Below, one piece after another: positions 4,178-14,876 of a DNA stretch of 22,350 nucleotides (position 1 is the stretch's first letter; each line of letters opens with the position of its first letter). Below the pieces are notes generated by a model. That model saw only the letters and a list, made by a program, of their open reading frames with translations, searched no databases and was not told where the DNA came from. The position numbers were made by a program, and so were the translations under genes. Origin of the DNA: a virus; the UHGV virus genome UHGV-0185671; one strand, written 5' to 3'.

Positions 4178-5472
4178 TGGCATTAAATGAAGGTCAACTG
4201 GTCACATATGCTCTGGATGAAATCATCGAAACCGTCCAGAACCTGACGCCAATGGCGTCCAAAGTGACAAAATACACCCCTCCGGCAGAATCCATGCAAC
4301 GTTCAAGCAACACCGTGTGGATGCCTGTTGAGCAGGAAGCGCCAACTCAGACTGGATGGGATTTAACTGGCAACGCTACCGGTATTCTGGAACTGTCCGT
4401 GAAATGCAACATGGGCGATCCAGATAACGATTTCTTCGAGCTTCGTGCAGATGACCTGCGTGATGAGCGTTCTTACCGTCGCCGCATCCAGGCATCCGCC
4501 AAAAAACTGGCGAATAACATTGAGTCAGCAATTGCCAAACAGGCAACTGAAATGGGCTCGCTTGTTGTTCACGATACCCGCGCAATTGGTCCATCTACTG
4601 GCCTGTCTGGTTGGGATTTTGTGTCTGATGCAGAGCGCCTGATGTTCTCCCGCGAACTCAACCGCGACATGGGCATCAGTTACTTCCTGAACCCTGACGA
4701 TTACCGCAAAGCAGGCCGCAACCTGGTAGATGGCGACATCTTCGGGCGAGTTCCTGAAGAAGCGTATCGCAACGGTACTATTCAGCGTCAGATTGCTGGC
4801 TTTGATGAAATTCTTCGCTCACCGAAACTTCCGGCAGTTACCAAGTCAACCGCTACTGGTGTAACTGTTTCTGGTGCGCAGAAGTTTAAGCCGCAGGCAT
4901 ACACCCTTGATACCGATGGTAACAAAGAGAACGTCGACAACCGTGTTGCAACGGTGACCGTATCCTCCACCACCGGATTTAAGCGCGGCGACAAAATCAG
5001 CTTCACTGGTGTGAAGTTCCTGTCTCAGATGGCGAAGAATGTGCTGACTGATGACGCGACTTTCTCAATCACCCGTGTGATCGATAGTACTCACATCGAA
5101 ATCACGCCGAAGCCGATTGCGCTGGATGACGCGTCACTGACAAAAGAAGAGAAGGCTTACGCTAACGTAAACACCTCTCTTGCTGATACCACTCCGGTAA
5201 ACGTTCTGAACGTGGCAACAACCACCGCTAACGTGTTCTGGGCTGATGACTCAATCCGTCTGTTGTCTCAGCCGATCCCGGTAACCCATGAACTGTTTGC
5301 TGGCATGAAAACGTCTTCCTTCAGCATTCCAGGCATTGGTGTTAACGGCATCTTCGCAACGCAGGGTGATATCAACACTCTGTCTGGTAAGTGCCGTATT
5401 GCTGTGTGGTATTCAGCATGTGCTGTACGACCAGAGGCAATTGGTGTTGGTCTGCCTAACCAGACTGCGTGA
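4177..5472 (+). CDS. Major capsid (coat) protein (P22 gp5-like), 431 aa
   Basis: Translation MALNEGQ...GVGLPNQTA closely matches the P22 coat protein as I recall it (start and C-terminus); start overlaps scaffold stop (TAATG). Confidence 0.93.
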
Positions 5473-9522: not shown

Positions 9523-10902
9523 ATGGCTACGTGGCAACAGGGTATTAATTCTGGTGGTTTTCTGGCTGGCATCGGTACGCAAAACGAGAATGCACCAAAG
9601 GCAAGCGACATTAACGCAACGCTTGGTCTGATCCGCGAAAACAATGAGTTGGCTCGCTCAGGTGCAAATAACGTTGGTCTGACCGCGTTACGTGGTCTGG
9701 CTGGAGTTGCTGATATTTACAATCAGGAACAGCAACAGAAAGCGATTAGTGCATTCAATAAGGTTCACGCTGATGCATGGGCTTCTGGTGATCCATCGGG
9801 ACTATTTAAGTTTGCCCAGGAAAATCCAGCGTTTGTTGCACAGGCACAACAGGCATTTTCCGGTCTTAATGAGCAGCAACGCAACGATATGGGCGATTTA
9901 GCCATGAGAGCTAACGTCGCTCTTTCTCAGGGACCGGAAGCCTACAGTAAATTCATTACTGACAACAAGGACAGGTTAAATCACGTGGGTGCGAATGCTG
10001 ACTGGATGATTCAGGCTGGTATCCAGAATCCAGAGCAGCTATCACACATGCTGACTACTATGACGCTAGGGGCGCTTGGACCAGAAAAGGCGTTTGCTGT
10101 TCAGGACAAGATGGCTGGTCGTGAAATTGACCGAGGCAGGCTGGCAGAGACAATCCGCAGCAATCAGGCTGGTGAAGCACTAACAGCGCGTGGTCAGAAC
10201 ATCACGATGCGCGGTCAGGATTTAGCGATGCAGAGAGCATCAATGAAAGGGGCTGTTGGGAATAATGAGCGCACAGTTCAACTAGCAGACGGAAGAACTG
10301 TAACCGTAGGCGGGAAGCTTCATGGTGCTGGTGCTAACGCGTTCTACGAAGGTATAGACAATGAGGGGAACATGGTTCGCGTTCCTGCTGGCTCTATTGC
10401 CGCTCCGGCCACGTCGGCAGCAAGCGCGCAGAATTACGCAATGAAGAAAGATCTTGATGCAATTTCTGGTGCATCAATTGACGATCTTGGCTTCATGACT
10501 GGCATTACAGGCTCTTCAGGTTCTCCTGCTCTTGGTGCAGATATTCGTAGCCGTGCATCTGGTGGTTATCAGAGGAAACTATACAACGCTGCACAGCGAA
10601 TCCAAGGAAAGATGCAGAATCAGGGCATTGCAGCAGCCAGAGACATGGGGGCATCTGGTATCAACACCGTTGCAGAAGCAAAGATGTATTTTCAAGGTAT
10701 GCCACAGGTTGATTTCTCAAGCCCTGAAGCACTACAACAATCAATGCGCGACATTCAGCAATATACCGACAATTACAACCAGCAATATAACGTTAATGTC
10801 GGTAATGGCGGGGAAAAATCATCAAGGCAACAGCCAGCTACTCAGCAATCAGCAGGAGGTAGCTACACGTCAAAATCAGGCATTCAATTTACGGTGGAAT
10901 GA
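9523..10902 (+). CDS. Ejection protein gp20-like, 459 aa
   Basis: Position and size (P22 gp20 about 471 aa); synteny. Confidence 0.8.
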
Positions 10903-12731
10903 TGAAAGTAACTGCAAACGGTAAGACATTTACCTTCCCTGATGGTACGAGCACGGAAGATATTGGCACCGCCATTGATGAGTATTTTGCTGGTCAGGCT
11001 GTTCAGCAACAAACAGTTAATCAGGCCAATAATGAACCAGCACGTGAAGAACCATCATTGATGCAACAAGCTGGCGATTTGCTCACTGGTGGTCAAAGTG
11101 CAGGGCAAATTGCTGAACAGGCTGGTCGCGGTCTGGTAAACATACCATTTGACGTATTGCAGGGTGGCGCAAGTCTGATTAATGCAATCAGCCAGGGGCT
11201 TGGTGGCCCCAAGGTTTTGGATGATGTTTATCGTCCAGTAGACAGACCGACAGACCCCTACGCTCAAGCTGGAGAAACAATTGGCGGGTATTTAGTTCCA
11301 GGAGTTGGAACGGCAGGAAGCATGGCTATTGGATCACTGGCAGAGGCCGCAAATCAGAAAGGCGATTTCGCACAAAATGCAGCTAAAAATGCCGGAGTTA
11401 ACCTTGCCGCTCAGGGTGTTCTTTCCGCAGCAGCAAAGGGAATAGGGCGTGGAATTACTGCTGTTCGTGGCGAAATATCACCCGCAGATCAGCAATTGCT
11501 CAAGCGTGCCGCTGCGGCAGATGTACCAGTTATGACATCGGATGTAGTTCCGCCAAAAACAAAACTTGGCAATCAACTGCAGGGTTACTCAGAAGGAGTC
11601 ATCGCTGGGACTGGACCAATGAGAGCCGCACAGCAGGATGCTAGAACCAAGCTTGTTAATCGCTTCACCGAAAAATACGGCGACTACGATCCATCTGTAG
11701 TAGTTGATAGTCTAAAGTCAGGCGTTGCAAGGGAAAAATCGTTAGCCAAGTCAAAACTAAACAACCTGTCAGGAAGAATGGTTGGAAAGCCAGTTGATAC
11801 AAGTGGCGCCATAAGAGCTATAGACGGAGCAGTAAACGAACTTGGGAAACTTAAAGGTGTTTCTGACACCCAGACCATTTCTGCGCTTAATGATTATAAG
11901 AATGCCATTCAGGAGATAACAAATGGAGATGATGCCTTTGAGTTACTTGATAAGCTGAGAACTCAGTTCCGCATTGACGTAAAAGGCGATCGTACAGTTC
12001 TGCCATCAATGTCGCAAACAATGGTCGACAGGGTCTACAACTCGCTAACCAATAGCCTTAGTAAATCTATAGCGAAAGGACTTAGCCCAAAAGATGCTTC
12101 AGCATGGAGAGCAGGAAAAGCTGATTATGCAAAAATGGCAACACATGCAACTCAGACGCGCCTTAAAAACGTTCTAAACAAAGGAGATTTAACTCCCGAG
12201 GCTGTAAATACCATTGTTTATGGACAATATGGGTCAGATATAGCTCGATTGTACGGGAAACTCGATCAAAAAGGTAAAGACATGCTAAGGGCTGCATATA
12301 TCAGCAAAATAGCTGACAAGGTAGGTGACAGCACTCAGAAAATGATGATCGAGCTTGGCAAGCTGCAAAAACAAGCAAATGGTCAGGTGTTTAAAACTGT
12401 ATTTGGCGGGAAGAACGGAAAAGAGATAGAGGGAATGTTATCTATTCTCGATGCTACCAAAAGAGCATCTGAGGCTAATGTTGTGACGAAGACTGGCATG
12501 ACACTCGCGCCTTTGGTAAGGGTTATTGGTAACCTAAAAACCGGAGGCGCGCTATTGGCTGGGGAAACAGGGATTGGCCTTATGTCTAGGGTTTATGAAA
12601 GCACTATGGCTAGGAATGCGCTCTTACGTCTGGCAAACACTAAAGCTGGAACGCCAGCTTATGAAAGAGCGTTAAGCAAAGCTGCAAATGTCATCAGACC
12701 GCTGCTTGCCACTGAGGTAACACAGCAGTGA
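10899..12731 (+). CDS. Ejection protein gp16-like, 610 aa
   Basis: Position and size (P22 gp16 about 609 aa); start overlaps gp20 stop (ATGA); last gene of the rightward virion block. Confidence 0.82.
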
Positions 12732-12748
12732 CTAAATGCCATGGATGG

Positions 12749-13000
12749 CTATTTCCCTAGCACATGAAACAATGTTTGCTTTAATTCCACCCATACAATT
12801 ATGACCACTATAGACAGACAAAAGAAACTGAATGCATTGGCATCACGATCGAAACCTTCTCCGGCACTAAATCCGTAAAAGGTCATAAAAAATATAAAAA
12901 TTGCGCACTTTGCAACGTTTATAAATTTTTTCTTCACGCCAACCTCCTTAGTTTTGTGCAGGATACCAGATGATTTGGAGTGAGATAAAGGTTTGTCCAC
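12749..13000 (-). CDS. Hypothetical small membrane protein, 83 aa
   Basis: Minus-strand ORF with two hydrophobic stretches (AIFIFFMTFYGF; FFCLSIVVIIVWV); AT-rich; convergent with gene 16 and downstream of the PIN gene. Could be a third member of the leftward accessory operon or a sieA-like remnant; weakly supported. Confidence 0.35.
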   Translation of the reverse strand: MDKPLSHSKSSGILHKTKEVGVKKKFINVAKCAIFIFFMTFYGFSAGEGFDRDANAFSFFCLSIVVIIVWVELKQTLFHVLGK

Positions 13001-13064
13001 TTTTGGCTATAGCTTTATGTATCCGTGACGGATGTAATTATCACGGATGCATAAAAATTATATT

Positions 13065-13613
13065 TTAGTGTAATCTCTGATCGTCTGAATCTTGTAAGAA
13101 CTCCATGAGACTTTGAACCGGAATTGGTTCTATTGATGATAATGTGAACACAGGAATATTGAGACTTTTGCAACGCTCAAACACTCCCTTATCATGAGTC
13201 CATACCTCGTCAGCATTAATTGCTCTTGCAATTGCTATTATTTGTCTGTCAAACTTAATTTTGTTTGCTGTACCTTCTGTGCTAATTTTCCTTAATTCTT
13301 TTAATGTTGGTATCGATGCGCATTCAATAGCAGCCAACTCATCAAATGATACAGTCTCGAAGCATGATAACGATTTGATAACATTCAGTTTTTCTTGTTG
13401 GTAATCTTTATGGATTCCAACTAAAAACTCCGCCAATACAGGAGTTGGAACGATGATTGTCCCGTTCTTGTTATCTATCCGATCAACAAGAGCTTCTGCT
13501 CTTCTTTTGGCATCTGGAATCTCAGAACCAAGTATAGGGTCAGATAATCTATAATCGTGTTCTATATCTGATAGTAGGTATACCAGAATATTGGTATCTA
13601 AAATTACTCGCAA
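13065..13613 (-). CDS. PIN-domain nuclease (VapC-like toxin/effector), 182 aa
   Basis: N-terminal MRVILDTNILVYLL beta-strand with Asp6, then Glu62 (VLAEF), Asp122 (FDRQIIAIARA) and Asp141 (WTHDKG), the canonical four-acidic PIN arrangement. TTG start at 13611-13613 with a GAGGA RBS 7 nt upstream; start overlaps the stop of the upstream gene by 10 nt. Confidence 0.75.
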   Translation of the reverse strand: MRVILDTNILVYLLSDIEHDYRLSDPILGSEIPDAKRRAEALVDRIDNKNGTIIVPTPVLAEFLVGIHKDYQQEKLNVIKSLSCFETVSFDELAAIECASIPTLKELRKISTEGTANKIKFDRQIIAIARAINADEVWTHDKGVFERCKSLNIPVFTLSSIEPIPVQSLMEFLQDSDDQRLH

Positions 13614-14323
13614 TTTATCTTCCTCAGAGTCCTAAGGATTGAATCAACATCGCGTTCCTCGGACCACTGATCTCCAGGAACTTGCTTGATAGCATTAATA
13701 GCATCCTTGAGTGATGATTTTTTGAGCAATGCAAATGAAGTTATTTTTAGTTTCTTTAGCTCCCATTTGTTGTTCTTTTTTTCCCAGCACCCATCTCCTT
13801 TAACCCTAATATATTTGAATAGATGGGACCCAAGAGCTGCTGCCAAATCAGGGGTTGCCTCGCACTTGAATGTTTCACCGTTGACTCCCTCAATACGCAC
13901 AGGTATTGAGTTGTCTTTTCCGCCAACACTGTATAGCCTTCCTTGAACTTCTGACGTTTTTGTTATGAGTAAAGGGATTGGCTCCTTTTTTACTCGCGGG
14001 AATGCGATAATGGTTGAGTGGTTTCGTCCGAGTAGTTTCGCTGAAAAACCATCATGTTCCAGTAAATTAACAATTTTTTGATACGCAGGTGATTTCTCTT
14101 TGGCTGAGAGAGAGGCCCTTGCTATGACAGCGTTATAACAAATATCATTATCGACCCATGCATTTAAGTCAGCCGATCCTTCACTTACACAGTCGAAGTG
14201 AACAGAATCTGCAGAACCGTATAGATCTACGAGAGCAGACATATACTTGACCAACTTAGCCATTGACAGCTGGCTAGGGGTGGTTCCGTCAAGTTTTAAT
14301 GTGAGTCCATTGCTTTTTTTCAT
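13604..14323 (-). CDS. Uncharacterised protein partnered with PIN nuclease (candidate sensor/antitoxin), 239 aa
   Basis: ATG at 14321-14323 (minus); long uninterrupted ORF; stop overlaps the PIN start, suggesting translational coupling; no recognisable DNA-binding or catalytic motif by eye; AT-rich relative to flanking virion genes. Confidence 0.65.
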   Translation of the reverse strand: MKKSNGLTLKLDGTTPSQLSMAKLVKYMSALVDLYGSADSVHFDCVSEGSADLNAWVDNDICYNAVIARASLSAKEKSPAYQKIVNLLEHDGFSAKLLGRNHSTIIAFPRVKKEPIPLLITKTSEVQGRLYSVGGKDNSIPVRIEGVNGETFKCEATPDLAAALGSHLFKYIRVKGDGCWEKKNNKWELKKLKITSFALLKKSSLKDAINAIKQVPGDQWSEERDVDSILRTLRKINCE

Positions 14324-14372
14324 TTGTCATCACGCGAGCCAATATCGATATGGTTAACTGTACGTCATAAGC

Positions 14373-14627
14373 CTATAACTTACTTTTGCTATAAATATTT
14401 TTCAGCGTTTCAAAGACCATCTTCTTAACAACGTCAGATTGCTCATCCGCGACTCGCTCAGCTTCGTCTCGATAGCCTACAATTGATGATGGCTTTGAGA
14501 GAGCATCCTGAACGATTTGTAATAACTCAGAGTTCATTGACCTTCCGTTAGCCTCTGCTCTTAATTTCAATTTTTCTCTTACTTCCAAAGGCATACGGAA
14601 GTTAAAGTGCGGATCGTCTCTAGCCAT
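14373..14627 (-). CDS. mnt: Mnt repressor (ribbon-helix-helix), 84 aa
   Basis: Translation MARDDPHFNFRMPLEVREKLKLRAEANGRSMNSELLQIVQDALSKPS... closely matches P22 Mnt as recalled; ATG at 14625-14627 (minus). The longer ORF-track call (to 14918) is an upstream extension across the promoter region. Confidence 0.9.
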   Translation of the reverse strand: MARDDPHFNFRMPLEVREKLKLRAEANGRSMNSELLQIVQDALSKPSSIVGYRDEAERVADEQSDVVKKMVFETLKNIYSKSKL

Positions 14628-14649
14628 GCCATCACCCCAAGTTAGTGTA

Positions 14650-14701
14650 TTGACATGATAGAAGCACTCTACTATATTCTCAATAGGTCCACGGTGGACC
14701 C
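14650..14701 (+). promoter_or_regulatory. immI control region: Pant promoter (-35 TTGACA 14650-14655), Arc operator (ATGATAGAAGCACTCTACTAT, 14655-14675), Mnt operator palindrome (GGTCCACGGTGGACC, 14686-14700); divergent Pmnt overlaps
   Basis: Sequences seen directly; they match the P22 Arc operator and the symmetric Mnt operator described in the literature on P22 immI. Confidence 0.85.
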
Positions 14702-14717
14702 ATGTTGTGAGGTGAAT

Positions 14718-14876
14718 ATGAAAGGAATGAGCAAAATGCCGCAGTTCAATTTGCGGTGGCCTAAAGAAGTATTGGATTTGGTGCGCAAGGTAGCTGAAGA
14801 GAACGGGCGATCTGTTAACTCTGAGATTTACAAGCGAGTGATGGACAGCCTGAAGAGAGAGGGGATAACGGTATGA
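14718..14876 (+). CDS. arc: Arc repressor (ribbon-helix-helix), 52 aa
   Basis: Translation MKGMSKMPQFNLRWPKEVLDLVRKVAEENGRSVNSEIYKRVM... near-identical to P22 Arc as recalled; GAGGTGA RBS upstream of ATG 14718. Confidence 0.92.
   Translation: MKGMSKMPQFNLRWPKEVLDLVRKVAEENGRSVNSEIYKRVMDSLKREGITV

What the first reader, a model, noticed from the sequence alone, without database searches (positions are those of the whole stretch)
12749..13064. Small membrane ORF and 8-bp inverted repeat downstream of the PIN gene
An 83-aa ORF with two hydrophobic segments follows the PIN gene on the same strand. The 64-bp spacer contains a perfect inverted repeat ATCCGTGA ... TCACGGAT (about 13020-13048, 13-nt spacer). 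The ORF may be a third component (membrane anchor or sieA-like remnant) and the repeat an operator or processing/termination hairpin for the leftward operon.
Basis: partly seen in the sequence, partly recalled or inferred. Interest (0 to 1): 0.4.

Follow-up and report, generated by a model that had tools for sequence, protein, structure and literature searches.

The report
Small membrane gene in sieA slot
The small ORF is a real, conserved 62-residue two-helix membrane-protein gene in the swappable "sieA" slot of a P22-like prophage; it is independent of the neighbouring PIN nuclease pair, and the inverted repeat is the hairpin at the end of the PIN operon, so this is uncharacterised but fairly ordinary prophage cargo.

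Summary
The ORF and the inverted repeat are both real, but their boundaries need correcting.

- **The gene.** It is 62 aa (GTG at 12937, AAGGAGG 5 nt upstream), not 83 aa. It matches phrog_21338 (function unknown) over its full length. It is under purifying selection and is predicted to be an N-in/C-in helical hairpin.
- **The repeat.** It is a 15-nt-arm hairpin (13014-13028 / 13041-13055, one mismatch, 12-nt loop).
- **Context.** The window is the "ant moron" of a P22-like prophage.
- **Not a third PIN component.**
  - In 5,426 complete E. coli genomes the ORF occurs in 89, the PIN pair in 33, and both in only 5.
  - 19 of 21 viral PIN-pair loci lack the ORF.
  - Distant PIN pairs end in canonical terminators.
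- **Not a SieA homologue or remnant.** hhalign gives 0.5% probability against type A SieA. However, the gene sits in the sieA position and uses the same ~40-nt leader, SD and GTG as P22 sieA. That leader fronts at least six unrelated cassette families, most of them membrane or secreted proteins.
- **The hairpin.** It travels only with the PIN module (33 of 33 genomes), where relatives carry terminators. It lacks a U-tract, so its function is inferred.
- **Function.** A prophage-expressed, envelope-level (exclusion-like) role is a guess by analogy only.

The parts
12609..12731 (+). Last 41 codons of the gp16-type ejection protein gene (gene spans 10899-12731). This is the left end of the conserved block that travels with the small gene.
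   Evidence: In loci whose gp16 centre (11463-12608) is unalignable at the DNA level, blastn homology resumes at 12609 and runs to 12968-12975 at 95.6-97%.
12732..12748 (.). 17-nt gap between the convergent stop codons of gp16 and the small gene. It contains the palindromic CCATCCATGG-type element.
   Evidence: Sequence. The same TA(A/G)CCATCC(A/T)TGGC follows the 62-aa gene in E. coli, Salmonella and Serratia loci and the SE1 cassette; P22 has GCCGTCCTTGGC.
12749..12937 (-). Gene for a 62-aa two-TM membrane protein, phrog_21338 family. Start is GTG 12937-12935 and stop is TAG 12751-12749.
   Evidence: Full-length PHROG match, E 6e-45. 62-aa homologues at 77-81% identity in Salmonella and Serratia, and 34-55% identical members. 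dN/dS 0.19-0.32 in frame against 0.43-1.6 in the other frames. Intact in all 42 loci examined that carry the standard sieA-type leader. TM segments at 5-21 and 36-52, AF2 helical hairpin. Charge pattern +/-/+ in all 11 members.
12938..12974 (-). Conserved sieA-type leader. SD AAGGAGG at 12949-12943; TGGTATCCT (extended -10-like) at 12968-12960; AATCAT at 12975-12970 abuts its upstream edge.
   Evidence: Nearly identical to the sequence in front of P22 sieA's GTG. Present in front of at least six unrelated cassette families and downstream of 23 distinct upstream flanks. Promoter function is inferred only.
12975..13013 (-). PIN-module-specific part of the spacer, with a candidate -35 (TGGACA, 12999-12994) for the slot gene.
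   Evidence: Promoter-like hit TGGACA-18-AATCAT, 9/12. This is weak: 8 hits were found against 5.6 expected in the region. Other PIN-bearing prophages have AACCAT instead of AATCAT.
13014..13055 (.). Hairpin / inverted repeat, 15-nt arms (13014-13028 and 13041-13055), one mismatch, 12-nt loop. The outer end of the stem is 9 nt downstream of the PIN stop codon.
   Evidence: Occurs only together with the PIN pair (33 of 33 E. coli genomes). Distant PIN pairs have GC-hairpin plus T-run terminators at the equivalent place. No U-tract on either strand and no terminator call. One natural variant (L060) breaks a pair without compensation.
13065..13613 (-). PIN-domain protein gene (182 aa), last gene of the leftward module to which the hairpin belongs.
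   Evidence: Pfam PIN E 4e-10; weak VapC-family NCBIfam hits below cutoff; phrog_21691.
13604..14323 (-). 239-aa partner gene. It overlaps the PIN gene by 10 nt and has a predicted OB-fold domain.
   Evidence: Always paired with the PIN gene in 21 of 21 loci. AF2 pLDDT 82. Foldseek hits to the OB folds of Stn1, RPA32, LysRS and Rim1.

Best explanation
**Context (shown).** The window is the 'ant moron' of a P22-like prophage, the hypervariable cargo region between ejection-protein gene 16 and the tailspike gene.

**The small gene (shown).** The segment 12749-12937 (minus strand) is an autonomous cargo gene for a 62-aa inner-membrane helical hairpin. The predicted topology is N-in/C-in with a short acidic periplasmic loop. 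It sits in the position that sieA occupies in P22 and is translated from the same ~40-nt leader, Shine-Dalgarno sequence and GTG as P22 sieA. That leader is a shared expression and recombination junction behind which unrelated cassettes are exchanged: SieA, this protein, a different 75-aa 2-TM protein, TM plus coiled-coil proteins, a secreted protein and a soluble protein. The gene is not part of the PIN system.

**The hairpin.** Shown: the 15-bp hairpin belongs to the adjacent two-gene module (OB-fold protein plus PIN nuclease) and marks its 3' end. Inferred: it acts as a weak, non-canonical terminator, a 3'-end stabiliser or an insulator between the Pmnt-driven operon and the slot gene.

**Function (inferred by analogy only).** The 62-aa protein is probably expressed from the prophage and acts at the inner membrane. 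The most likely role is a superinfection-exclusion or other envelope-level protective factor, functionally analogous to SieA.
For: **Context.**
- Synteny gp20, gp16, [slot], PIN pair, Mnt/Arc, Ant.
- Annotated relatives JEP4, phiv205-1, UPF_BP1, SE1 and P22.
- The region is known to be in rapid flux (PMC2629481).

**Real gene.**
- Full-length phrog_21338 match.
- Length-conserved homologues down to 34% identity.
- dN/dS 0.19-0.32 only in this frame.
- Intact in all 42 loci examined that carry the standard sieA-type leader.
- Conserved positive-inside charge pattern; helical hairpin model.

**Independence from the PIN pair.**
- E. coli genome counts are 89, 33 and 5.
- 19 of 21 PIN loci have no family member.
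- Upstream neighbours vary: S24 repressor, Arc, Rap1a-like, others.
- In L052 the gene is the only gene between gp16 and the tailspike gene.

**Shared leader.**
- The leader and start codon match P22 sieA apart from one base just 5' of the GTG.
- At least six unrelated cassette families sit behind it, four of them with TM segments or an N-terminal hydrophobic (signal-like) segment.

**Hairpin.**
- Stable beyond shuffles.
- Strictly linked to the PIN module.
- Canonical terminators occupy the same position in relatives.

Against: - No expression data exist. Promoter predictions are weak (9/12, near the chance rate), and several upstream flanks have no sigma-70-like match. Transcription could therefore depend on read-through.
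- The hairpin has no U-tract and is not called as a terminator. The single arm variant is non-compensatory. The stem is stronger on the plus-strand RNA, where G.U replaces the A/C mismatch.
- The exclusion function rests only on position, membrane location and analogy. There is no homology to SieA type A or to any characterised protein.
- One cassette family behind the same leader is soluble, so the slot is not restricted to membrane functions.
Confidence: 0.6

Rival explanations
1. The small membrane protein is a third component of the PIN system (anchor, sensor or effector), co-transcribed with it.
For: Same strand and immediately downstream of the PIN gene, with no canonical terminator between them. 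Co-occurs with the PIN pair in 5 E. coli genomes and 2 IMG/VR loci.
Against: 28 of 33 PIN-pair genomes lack it and 84 of 89 ORF genomes lack the PIN pair. 19 of 21 PIN loci have no family member. The same PIN module is followed by at least 4 other cassettes. Distant PIN pairs are strict two-gene units ending in terminators.
Confidence: 0.04
2. The ORF is a decayed, non-functional remnant of sieA or another gene, conserved only through recent common ancestry.
For: It uses sieA's leader and start. It is usually left unannotated by RefSeq/PGAP and in phage records. Most E. coli copies are more than 95% identical.
Against: There is no nucleotide or protein similarity to P22 sieA beyond the GTG. 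Homologues at 34-81% identity keep length, TM pattern and charge pattern. dN/dS is 0.19-0.32. No disrupted copy occurs among the 42 loci examined.
Confidence: 0.05
3. The 62-aa protein is a membrane-damaging toxin, holin-like protein or abortive-infection effector rather than an injection blocker.
For: Its size and N-in/C-in two-TM architecture resemble class II holins and pinholins and some small membrane toxins (own knowledge). It has a very strong SD.
Against: No antitoxin or antisense partner is conserved next to it, and neighbours vary. It lies far from the lysis cassette and sits in a slot that is lysogen-expressed in P22 (PMC10883804). It is intact in 89 E. coli genomes, which argues against constitutive toxicity.
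Confidence: 0.12
4. The inverted repeat is a protein-binding operator that regulates the promoter of the slot gene or the PIN operon. It carries three ATCCGT half-sites, including a 13-bp perfect palindrome ATCCGTGACGGAT.
For: Perfect palindrome plus a third half-site. The repeat is centred about 25-60 bp upstream of the candidate -35 of the slot gene. It lacks a U-tract, so it makes a poor terminator.
Against: No second copy occurs anywhere in the window, including the Pmnt/Pant region. No DNA-binding regulator is specifically linked to it other than the ubiquitous Arc/Mnt proteins. Relatives carry plain terminators at this place.
Confidence: 0.12
5. The hairpin functions on the plus-strand (late operon) RNA, as a pause site, attenuator or 3'-stabiliser for transcripts leaving gene 16 on the way to the tailspike gene.
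For: The stem is perfect on the plus strand, with G.U instead of the A/C mismatch. It folds at -22 against -17 kcal/mol and is followed by an A/U-rich tract with UUUU 10 nt downstream. [quoted passage not shown]
Against: The hairpin co-segregates with the PIN module, not with gp16 or the small gene. The U-run is not adjacent to the stem and no terminator is called. The evidence is a single-position asymmetry only.
Confidence: 0.1

Closest known systems
P22 SieA superinfection-exclusion protein (Pfam PF26849, phrog_7745; Leavitt et al. 2024, PMC10883804)
   Same: Same genomic slot, convergent with and next to gene 16 in a P22-like prophage. Same leader, SD and GTG start codon, apart from one base just 5' of the GTG. 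Both are predicted or known to be small integral inner-membrane proteins.
   Different: No detectable homology to type A SieA: BLASTP E 0.29, hhalign probability 0.5%, no Pfam family returned. Types B and C were not compared directly. It is 62 aa against 162-164 aa, with 2 predicted TM segments against 3. The SieA motif FxRYPxEAxxFNK is absent; a superficially similar GEGFDRD loop is not conserved in distant family members. Function is untested.
The 'ant moron' of P22-like phages (Villafane et al. 2008, PMC2629481)
   Same: Same region between genes 16 and 9, with variable gene content and Mnt/Arc/Ant immunity genes. That paper reports ten types in sixteen genomes.
   Different: This combination is not described there, as far as I read: the 62-aa gene plus an OB-fold/PIN pair, and the observation that one ~40-nt leader fronts many alternative cassettes.
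Small phage-encoded inner-membrane exclusion proteins such as T4 Imm and HK97 gp15 (own knowledge; gp15 is cited in PMC10883804)
   Same: Small membrane proteins expressed to block entry of superinfecting DNA. Comparable size and membrane location.
   Different: No sequence relationship was found. A profile search of 1.84 billion representative proteins found only 12 small proteins of this family, and only phrog_21338 is hit in PHROGs. The resemblance is functional analogy only.
Rho-independent terminators downstream of homologous OB-fold/PIN pairs
   Same: Same position, a few to about 35 nt after the PIN stop codon. Stable stem-loop.
   Different: The window's stem is AU-richer, 15 bp with a 12-nt loop, and has no U-tract on either strand. 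It is not detected by the terminator scan.
VapC-type PIN toxins of type II toxin-antitoxin systems
   Same: The neighbouring 182-aa protein has a PIN domain and an overlapping upstream partner gene.
   Different: NCBIfam VapC scores are far below cutoff (27 against 140 bits). The partner is a 239-aa OB-fold protein, not a small antitoxin. There is no PADLOC match. This concerns the neighbouring module, not the small ORF.

Membership tests
phrog_21338 (62-aa phage protein family, function unknown) | Full-length match to the family profile | tested here: met
   E 6.1e-45, residues 1-62 aligned on profile positions 1-62 of 62.
SieA (PF26849 / phrog_7745) | Sequence or profile similarity to SieA | tested here: not met
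   The Pfam scan returned no family at E <= 0.01. PHROGs hits only 21338. BLASTP against P22 SieA gives E 0.29. hhalign family-against-family gives probability 0.5%. A profile search of 1.84e9 proteins returns no SieA-sized protein. Only type A SieA sequences were available for the hhalign test.
SieA (PF26849 / phrog_7745) | Conserved C-terminal cytoplasmic motif FxRYPxEAxxFNK (PMC10883804) | tested here: not met
   The motif is absent. The loop YGFSAGEGFDRD aligns weakly to it, but it lies between the two TM segments and is not conserved in distant members.
SieA (PF26849 / phrog_7745) | Three or more transmembrane segments, about 160-200 aa | tested here: not met
   62 aa. Two hydrophobic segments by a Kyte-Doolittle scan, against three for P22 SieA with the same script. 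AF2 gives two helices.
SieA (PF26849 / phrog_7745) | Located between the homologues of genes 16 and 9 of a P22-like prophage | tested here: met
   Convergent with gp16 at 17 nt. Same leader and start as P22 sieA.
SieA (PF26849 / phrog_7745) | Blocks DNA injection by P22-like phages | not testable with these tools
   Needs plating, K+ efflux and lysogenisation assays.
   Both are present in 5 of 33 PIN-pair genomes and 5 of 89 ORF genomes. 19 of 21 IMG/VR PIN loci lack it.
Intrinsic (Rho-independent) terminator | Stable stem-loop directly after the last gene | tested here: met
   -17.1 kcal/mol on the operon strand, z -4.4. The stem starts 9 nt after the PIN stop.
Intrinsic (Rho-independent) terminator | U-rich tract immediately 3' of the stem | tested here: not met
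   The minus-strand tail is GCUAUAGCC. The scan reports no terminator there.
Moron (independently expressed cargo gene in a phage operon) | Present or absent among otherwise syntenic relatives | tested here: met
   The slot holds at least six alternative cassette families. The ORF is in 89 of the 144 E. coli genomes that matched the query containing the leader.
Moron (independently expressed cargo gene in a phage operon) | Own promoter and terminator | tested here: inconclusive
   Only weak sigma-70-like matches and an extended -10-like TGGTATCCT in the leader. In L052 no co-directional upstream gene exists, which implies its own promoter. There are no transcript data.

The most novel reading that the evidence does not exclude
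The 62-aa hairpin protein is a new, minimal superinfection-exclusion (DNA-entry-blocking) factor that functionally replaces SieA in many E. coli, Salmonella and Serratia P22-like prophages. In addition, the ~40-nt sieA leader is a dedicated cassette-exchange junction, carrying expression signals and a recombination target, behind which prophages shuffle a repertoire of mostly envelope-acting defence genes.
Probability: 0.25. Interest if true: 0.55.

Novelty: new member of a known kind. Interest (0 to 1): 0.3.

Why it matters
If the 62-aa protein does block phage entry, it would be one of the smallest exclusion factors known. It would also be a tractable probe of how P22-type ejection proteins (gp16 and gp20) cross the inner membrane, which Leavitt et al. 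2024 leave open.

The shared leader with at least six interchangeable cassette families gives a simple way to mine prophages for new lysogen-expressed cargo: search for the leader and read what follows.

On the practical side, this gene is left unannotated in most RefSeq genomes and phage records. The hairpin and the PIN pair should be analysed as a separate two-gene unit.

Tried and rejected
- **SieA homology.** A BLASTP alignment of the loop FYGFSAGEGFDRD to the SieA motif region looked suggestive. I rejected it because the loop motif is not conserved in distant members, hhalign gives 0.5% probability, and the profile search of 1.84e9 proteins finds no SieA.
- **Database annotation.** Pfam, NCBIfam, PADLOC and PDB sequence searches of the 62-aa protein and its family found nothing. 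Rfam found nothing in 12400-14800.
- **Operator idea.** I searched for further copies of the ATCCGT palindrome and half-sites in the window and found none above chance.
- **Covariation in the hairpin.** All 33 E. coli copies are at least 99% identical. The only variant (L060) breaks a pair, so there is no covariation evidence either way.
- **Lipoprotein reading of K10-C11.** Rejected. There is no lipobox (VAKC), and the Cys is not conserved in distant members.
- **Genome-contig scan for the family.** It returned a single Serratia locus, which was uninformative.
- **Context of the most distant members (P0016-P0022).** These could not be looked up because of tool restrictions. Only L051 and L052 gave distant contexts.
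- **Literature.** Searches found no paper on this family.

Full report
**Observation**

The mechanical ORF (12749..13000, minus strand, 83 aa, GTG) and the downstream position relative to the PIN gene (13065..13613, minus strand; Pfam PIN E 4e-10) are as described. The perfect 8-bp inverted repeat lies at 13021-13028 / 13041-13048 with a 12-nt gap. It is the core of a longer repeat with 15-nt arms (13014-13028 / 13041-13055, 93% complementary). As RNA it folds at -17.1 kcal/mol on the minus strand and -22 kcal/mol on the plus strand, where the single A/C mismatch becomes a G.U pair. Z-scores are -4.4 and -4.3, and 0 of 200 shuffles fold as well. Both features are therefore real and non-random.

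**Where we are**

The neighbours show that this is the immI / 'ant moron' region of a P22-like (Lederbergvirus) prophage:
- gp20-like gene, 9523-10902
- gp16-like gene, 10899-12731
- a leftward Mnt-like gene, a 239-aa gene and the PIN gene
- a divergent promoter pair at about 14650-14683
- Arc and Ant (P22_AR domains)

This rests, and on the annotated relatives. The region is described in the literature as a moron in rapid flux, with ten types in sixteen genomes (PMC2629481). In P22, the gene convergent with gene 16 at this exact place is sieA.

**True gene boundaries**

DNA homology to phages JEP4, phiv205-1 and UPF_BP1 runs from the gp16 3' end through the ORF and stops at about 12955-12974. 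The first 21 codons of the 83-aa ORF are not conserved.

Every homologue starts at the codon equivalent to GTG 12937-12935. Some start with ATG at that position (L029 and the Serratia loci). A perfect AAGGAGG lies 5 nt upstream. The 62-aa product matches phrog_21338 end to end (E 6e-45; function unknown).

**Is it a real gene?**

- Homologues of exactly 62 aa at 77-81% identity occur in Salmonella and Serratia.
- A profile search of 1.84 billion representative proteins finds 12 proteins, all of 61-98 aa, down to 34% identity to the window protein.
- Pairwise dN/dS is 0.19-0.32 in the annotated frame. It is 0.43-1.6 in the two other frames, which also contain stops.
- The numbers of substitutions are small (11-22 per pair), so this is supportive rather than conclusive on its own.
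- All 42 loci examined that carry the standard sieA-type leader have an intact 62-codon frame.
- Two hydrophobic segments (5-21 and 36-52) and an AF2 helical hairpin (helices 2-24 and 29-61, pLDDT 71) agree.
- All 11 diverse members show the same charge pattern: N-terminus +1 to +4, loop -1 to -2, C-terminus +1 to +3.
- By the positive-inside rule this predicts N-in/C-in with an acidic periplasmic loop. That topology is an inference.

**Relation to the PIN pair**

- In 5,426 complete E. coli genomes the ORF is present in 89, the PIN pair in 33, and the two together in 5.
- In IMG/VR, 19 of 21 loci encoding the PIN pair have no member of the 62-aa family within 3 kb.
- The 239-aa/PIN pair is an invariant overlapping two-gene unit in all 21 loci.
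- The ten relatives at 54-77% identity lie outside immI-type contexts. Most of them end in canonical GC-hairpin plus T-run terminators a few to about 35 nt after the PIN stop codon.
- Conversely, the 62-aa gene has many different upstream neighbours: S24/C2-type repressor, Arc-like, Rap1a-like, hkcC-type junction and others.
- In L052 it is the only gene between gp16 and the tailspike gene.

**Relation to sieA**

The sequence GGTATCCTGCACAAAACTAAGGAGGTTGG(C/T)GTG in front of the ORF matches the sequence in front of P22 sieA's annotated GTG, apart from the base just 5' of the GTG. Similarity stops exactly at the start codon.

The coding sequences are unrelated:
- BLASTP gives E 0.29.
- hhalign of the two family alignments gives 0.5% probability. 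The SieA alignment contained type A sequences only.
- The Pfam scan returned no family, and PHROGs hit only phrog_21338, not the SieA family.
- The SieA motif FxRYPxEAxxFNK (PMC10883804) is absent.

A superficial resemblance of the loop GEGFDRD to that motif does not survive comparison with distant family members. The gene is therefore an alternative occupant of the sieA slot, not a SieA homologue or remnant.

**The leader as a cassette junction**

Among the loci gathered, the same leader and GTG precede at least six unrelated cassette families:
- the 62-aa 2-TM protein
- a different 75-aa 2-TM protein (E. coli MLI121)
- 109-aa N-terminal-TM plus coiled-coil proteins, in two versions (SE1, L059)
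- a 129-aa protein with an N-terminal hydrophobic, signal-like segment
- a 140-aa soluble protein (E. coli p11A)
- P22 SieA

The leader lies downstream of 23 distinct upstream flanks. On the other side, the conserved block that carries the 62-aa gene begins inside gp16 at 12609, covering its last 41 codons.

The leader contains TGGTATCCT (12968-12960), which resembles an extended -10 element. In the window there is also a 9/12 sigma-70-like match, TGGACA-18-AATCAT (12999-12970). Such matches occur at close to the chance rate (8 found against 5.6 expected), and several flanks have none. An autonomous promoter is therefore inferred, not shown. The inference draws on the P22 PsieA annotation and its functional 85-bp fragment, and on L052.

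**The hairpin**

The 64-bp spacer containing the hairpin occurs in exactly the 33 E. coli genomes that carry the PIN pair, at 99% identity or more, whatever cassette follows. It therefore belongs to the PIN module.

The outer end of the stem is 9 nt after the PIN stop codon, where relatives carry true terminators. The most economical reading is an operon-end structure: a weak or factor-assisted terminator, a 3' stabiliser, or an insulator in front of the slot gene.

Evidence against a canonical terminator:
- there is no U-tract on either strand, and no terminator is called
- the only natural variant (L060) breaks a pair without compensation

An operator reading rests on three ATCCGT half-sites, including the 13-bp palindrome ATCCGTGACGGAT. 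It has no support from additional sites in the window. A plus-strand role in late-operon read-through is suggested only by the G.U against A/C asymmetry. No Rfam family matches.

**Function of the 62-aa protein**

Nothing characterised is homologous to it. The following points motivate the guess that it is a prophage-expressed inner-membrane factor acting at the envelope, most plausibly in superinfection exclusion:
- its constant position next to the ejection-protein genes, even at 45% identity
- its use of sieA's expression signals
- its membrane topology
- the fact that only about a third of P22-like phages carry sieA, which itself blocks DNA injection at the inner membrane by interfering with gp16/gp20 (PMC10883804)

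I put this functional guess at roughly 0.25-0.35. A toxin or holin-like role is a weaker alternative, and a dead remnant is unlikely.

**Verdict**

The 'third component' interpretation is wrong. The 'sieA-like' hint is right about the slot and the expression signals but wrong about homology. The hairpin is best assigned to the end of the PIN operon.

The thing itself is an uncharacterised member of a known kind, namely cargo of the P22-like ant moron. The family is already catalogued in PHROGs without a function. It is of moderate to low surprise, with a testable exclusion hypothesis and a useful 'leader plus cassette' search handle.

Noticed in passing
window 13604-14323 (-) and 13065-13613 (-): The PIN gene's 239-aa partner overlaps it by 10 nt. 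Its AF2 model (pLDDT 82) has a C-terminal OB-fold domain similar to Stn1, RPA32, the LysRS anticodon-binding domain and SSB (Foldseek E 3e-5 to 7e-4; only about 85-130 residues aligned). The pair is a conserved two-gene unit, also found outside P22-like immI regions. Homologues of the 239-aa partner are also named from Pantoea, Enterobacter and Pseudomonas. It has no PADLOC match, so it is a candidate uncharacterised prophage defence or toxin-antitoxin-like module.
   Followed up: partly
window 12938-12974 (-); P22 locus L005 4829-4870 (-): A ~40-nt leader (GGTATCCTGCACAAAACTAAGGAGGTTGGYGTG) shared with P22 sieA fronts at least six unrelated cassette families. It follows 23 different upstream flanks in the loci collected, and homology between cassettes stops exactly at the GTG. 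It contains an extended -10-like TGGTATCCT.
   Followed up: partly
L009-L013, L020 (Serratia P22-like prophages), about 4644-4999 upstream of the small gene: In Serratia, the 62-aa gene lies 1-9 nt downstream of a Rap1a-like gene (Pfam PF18602, a type VI secretion immunity family), downstream of an Mnt/Arc gene in several of the loci. This would be an orphan immunity gene carried as prophage cargo.
   Followed up: no
L052 3890-4189 (IMG/VR UViG_3300011892_000028): A 45%-identical family member is the only gene between gp16 and the tailspike gene. This is a minimal one-gene 'ant moron', and it implies the small gene has its own promoter.
   Followed up: partly
window 10899-12731 (+): gp16 is mosaic. 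Its ends (10899-11462 and 12609-12731) are about 95-97% identical in loci whose central part (11463-12608) is unalignable at the DNA level. The C-terminal 41 codons co-travel with the small gene. SieA-escape mutations in P22 map to the C-terminal regions of gp16 and gp20 (PMC10883804).
   Followed up: partly
L019 4299-5189 (Salmonella GCA_010566485.1): The S24-type repressor gene plus the 62-aa gene, with the sieA-type leader, occur next to long-tailed-phage genes (tape measure, tail terminator) instead of gp16. This suggests transfer of the segment into a different phage type, or an assembly or recombination junction.
   Followed up: no
window 12738-12749: A short palindromic element GCCATGGATGGC (TA(A/G)CCATCC(A/T)TGGC on the minus strand) sits between the convergent stop codons. 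It recurs after the 62-aa gene in E. coli, Salmonella and Serratia, after the SE1 cassette, and in similar form after P22 sieA.
   Followed up: no
window 14650-14683: Strong divergent promoter-like pair: plus strand TTGACA-17-TATATT (11/12) and minus strand TTGAGA-17-TATCAT (10/12). It lies between the Mnt-like and Arc genes and is the likely Pant/Pmnt equivalent. No terminator-like site is predicted between the Mnt-like gene and the 239-aa/PIN pair, so the pair is probably lysogen-expressed from the Pmnt-like promoter.
   Followed up: no
window 12749-12937; RefSeq and GenBank records: The 62-aa gene is unannotated in JEP4, phiv205-1 and UPF_BP1, and in most RefSeq E. coli genomes that carry it ('none' under the match). 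This is a systematic small-gene annotation gap.
   Followed up: yes
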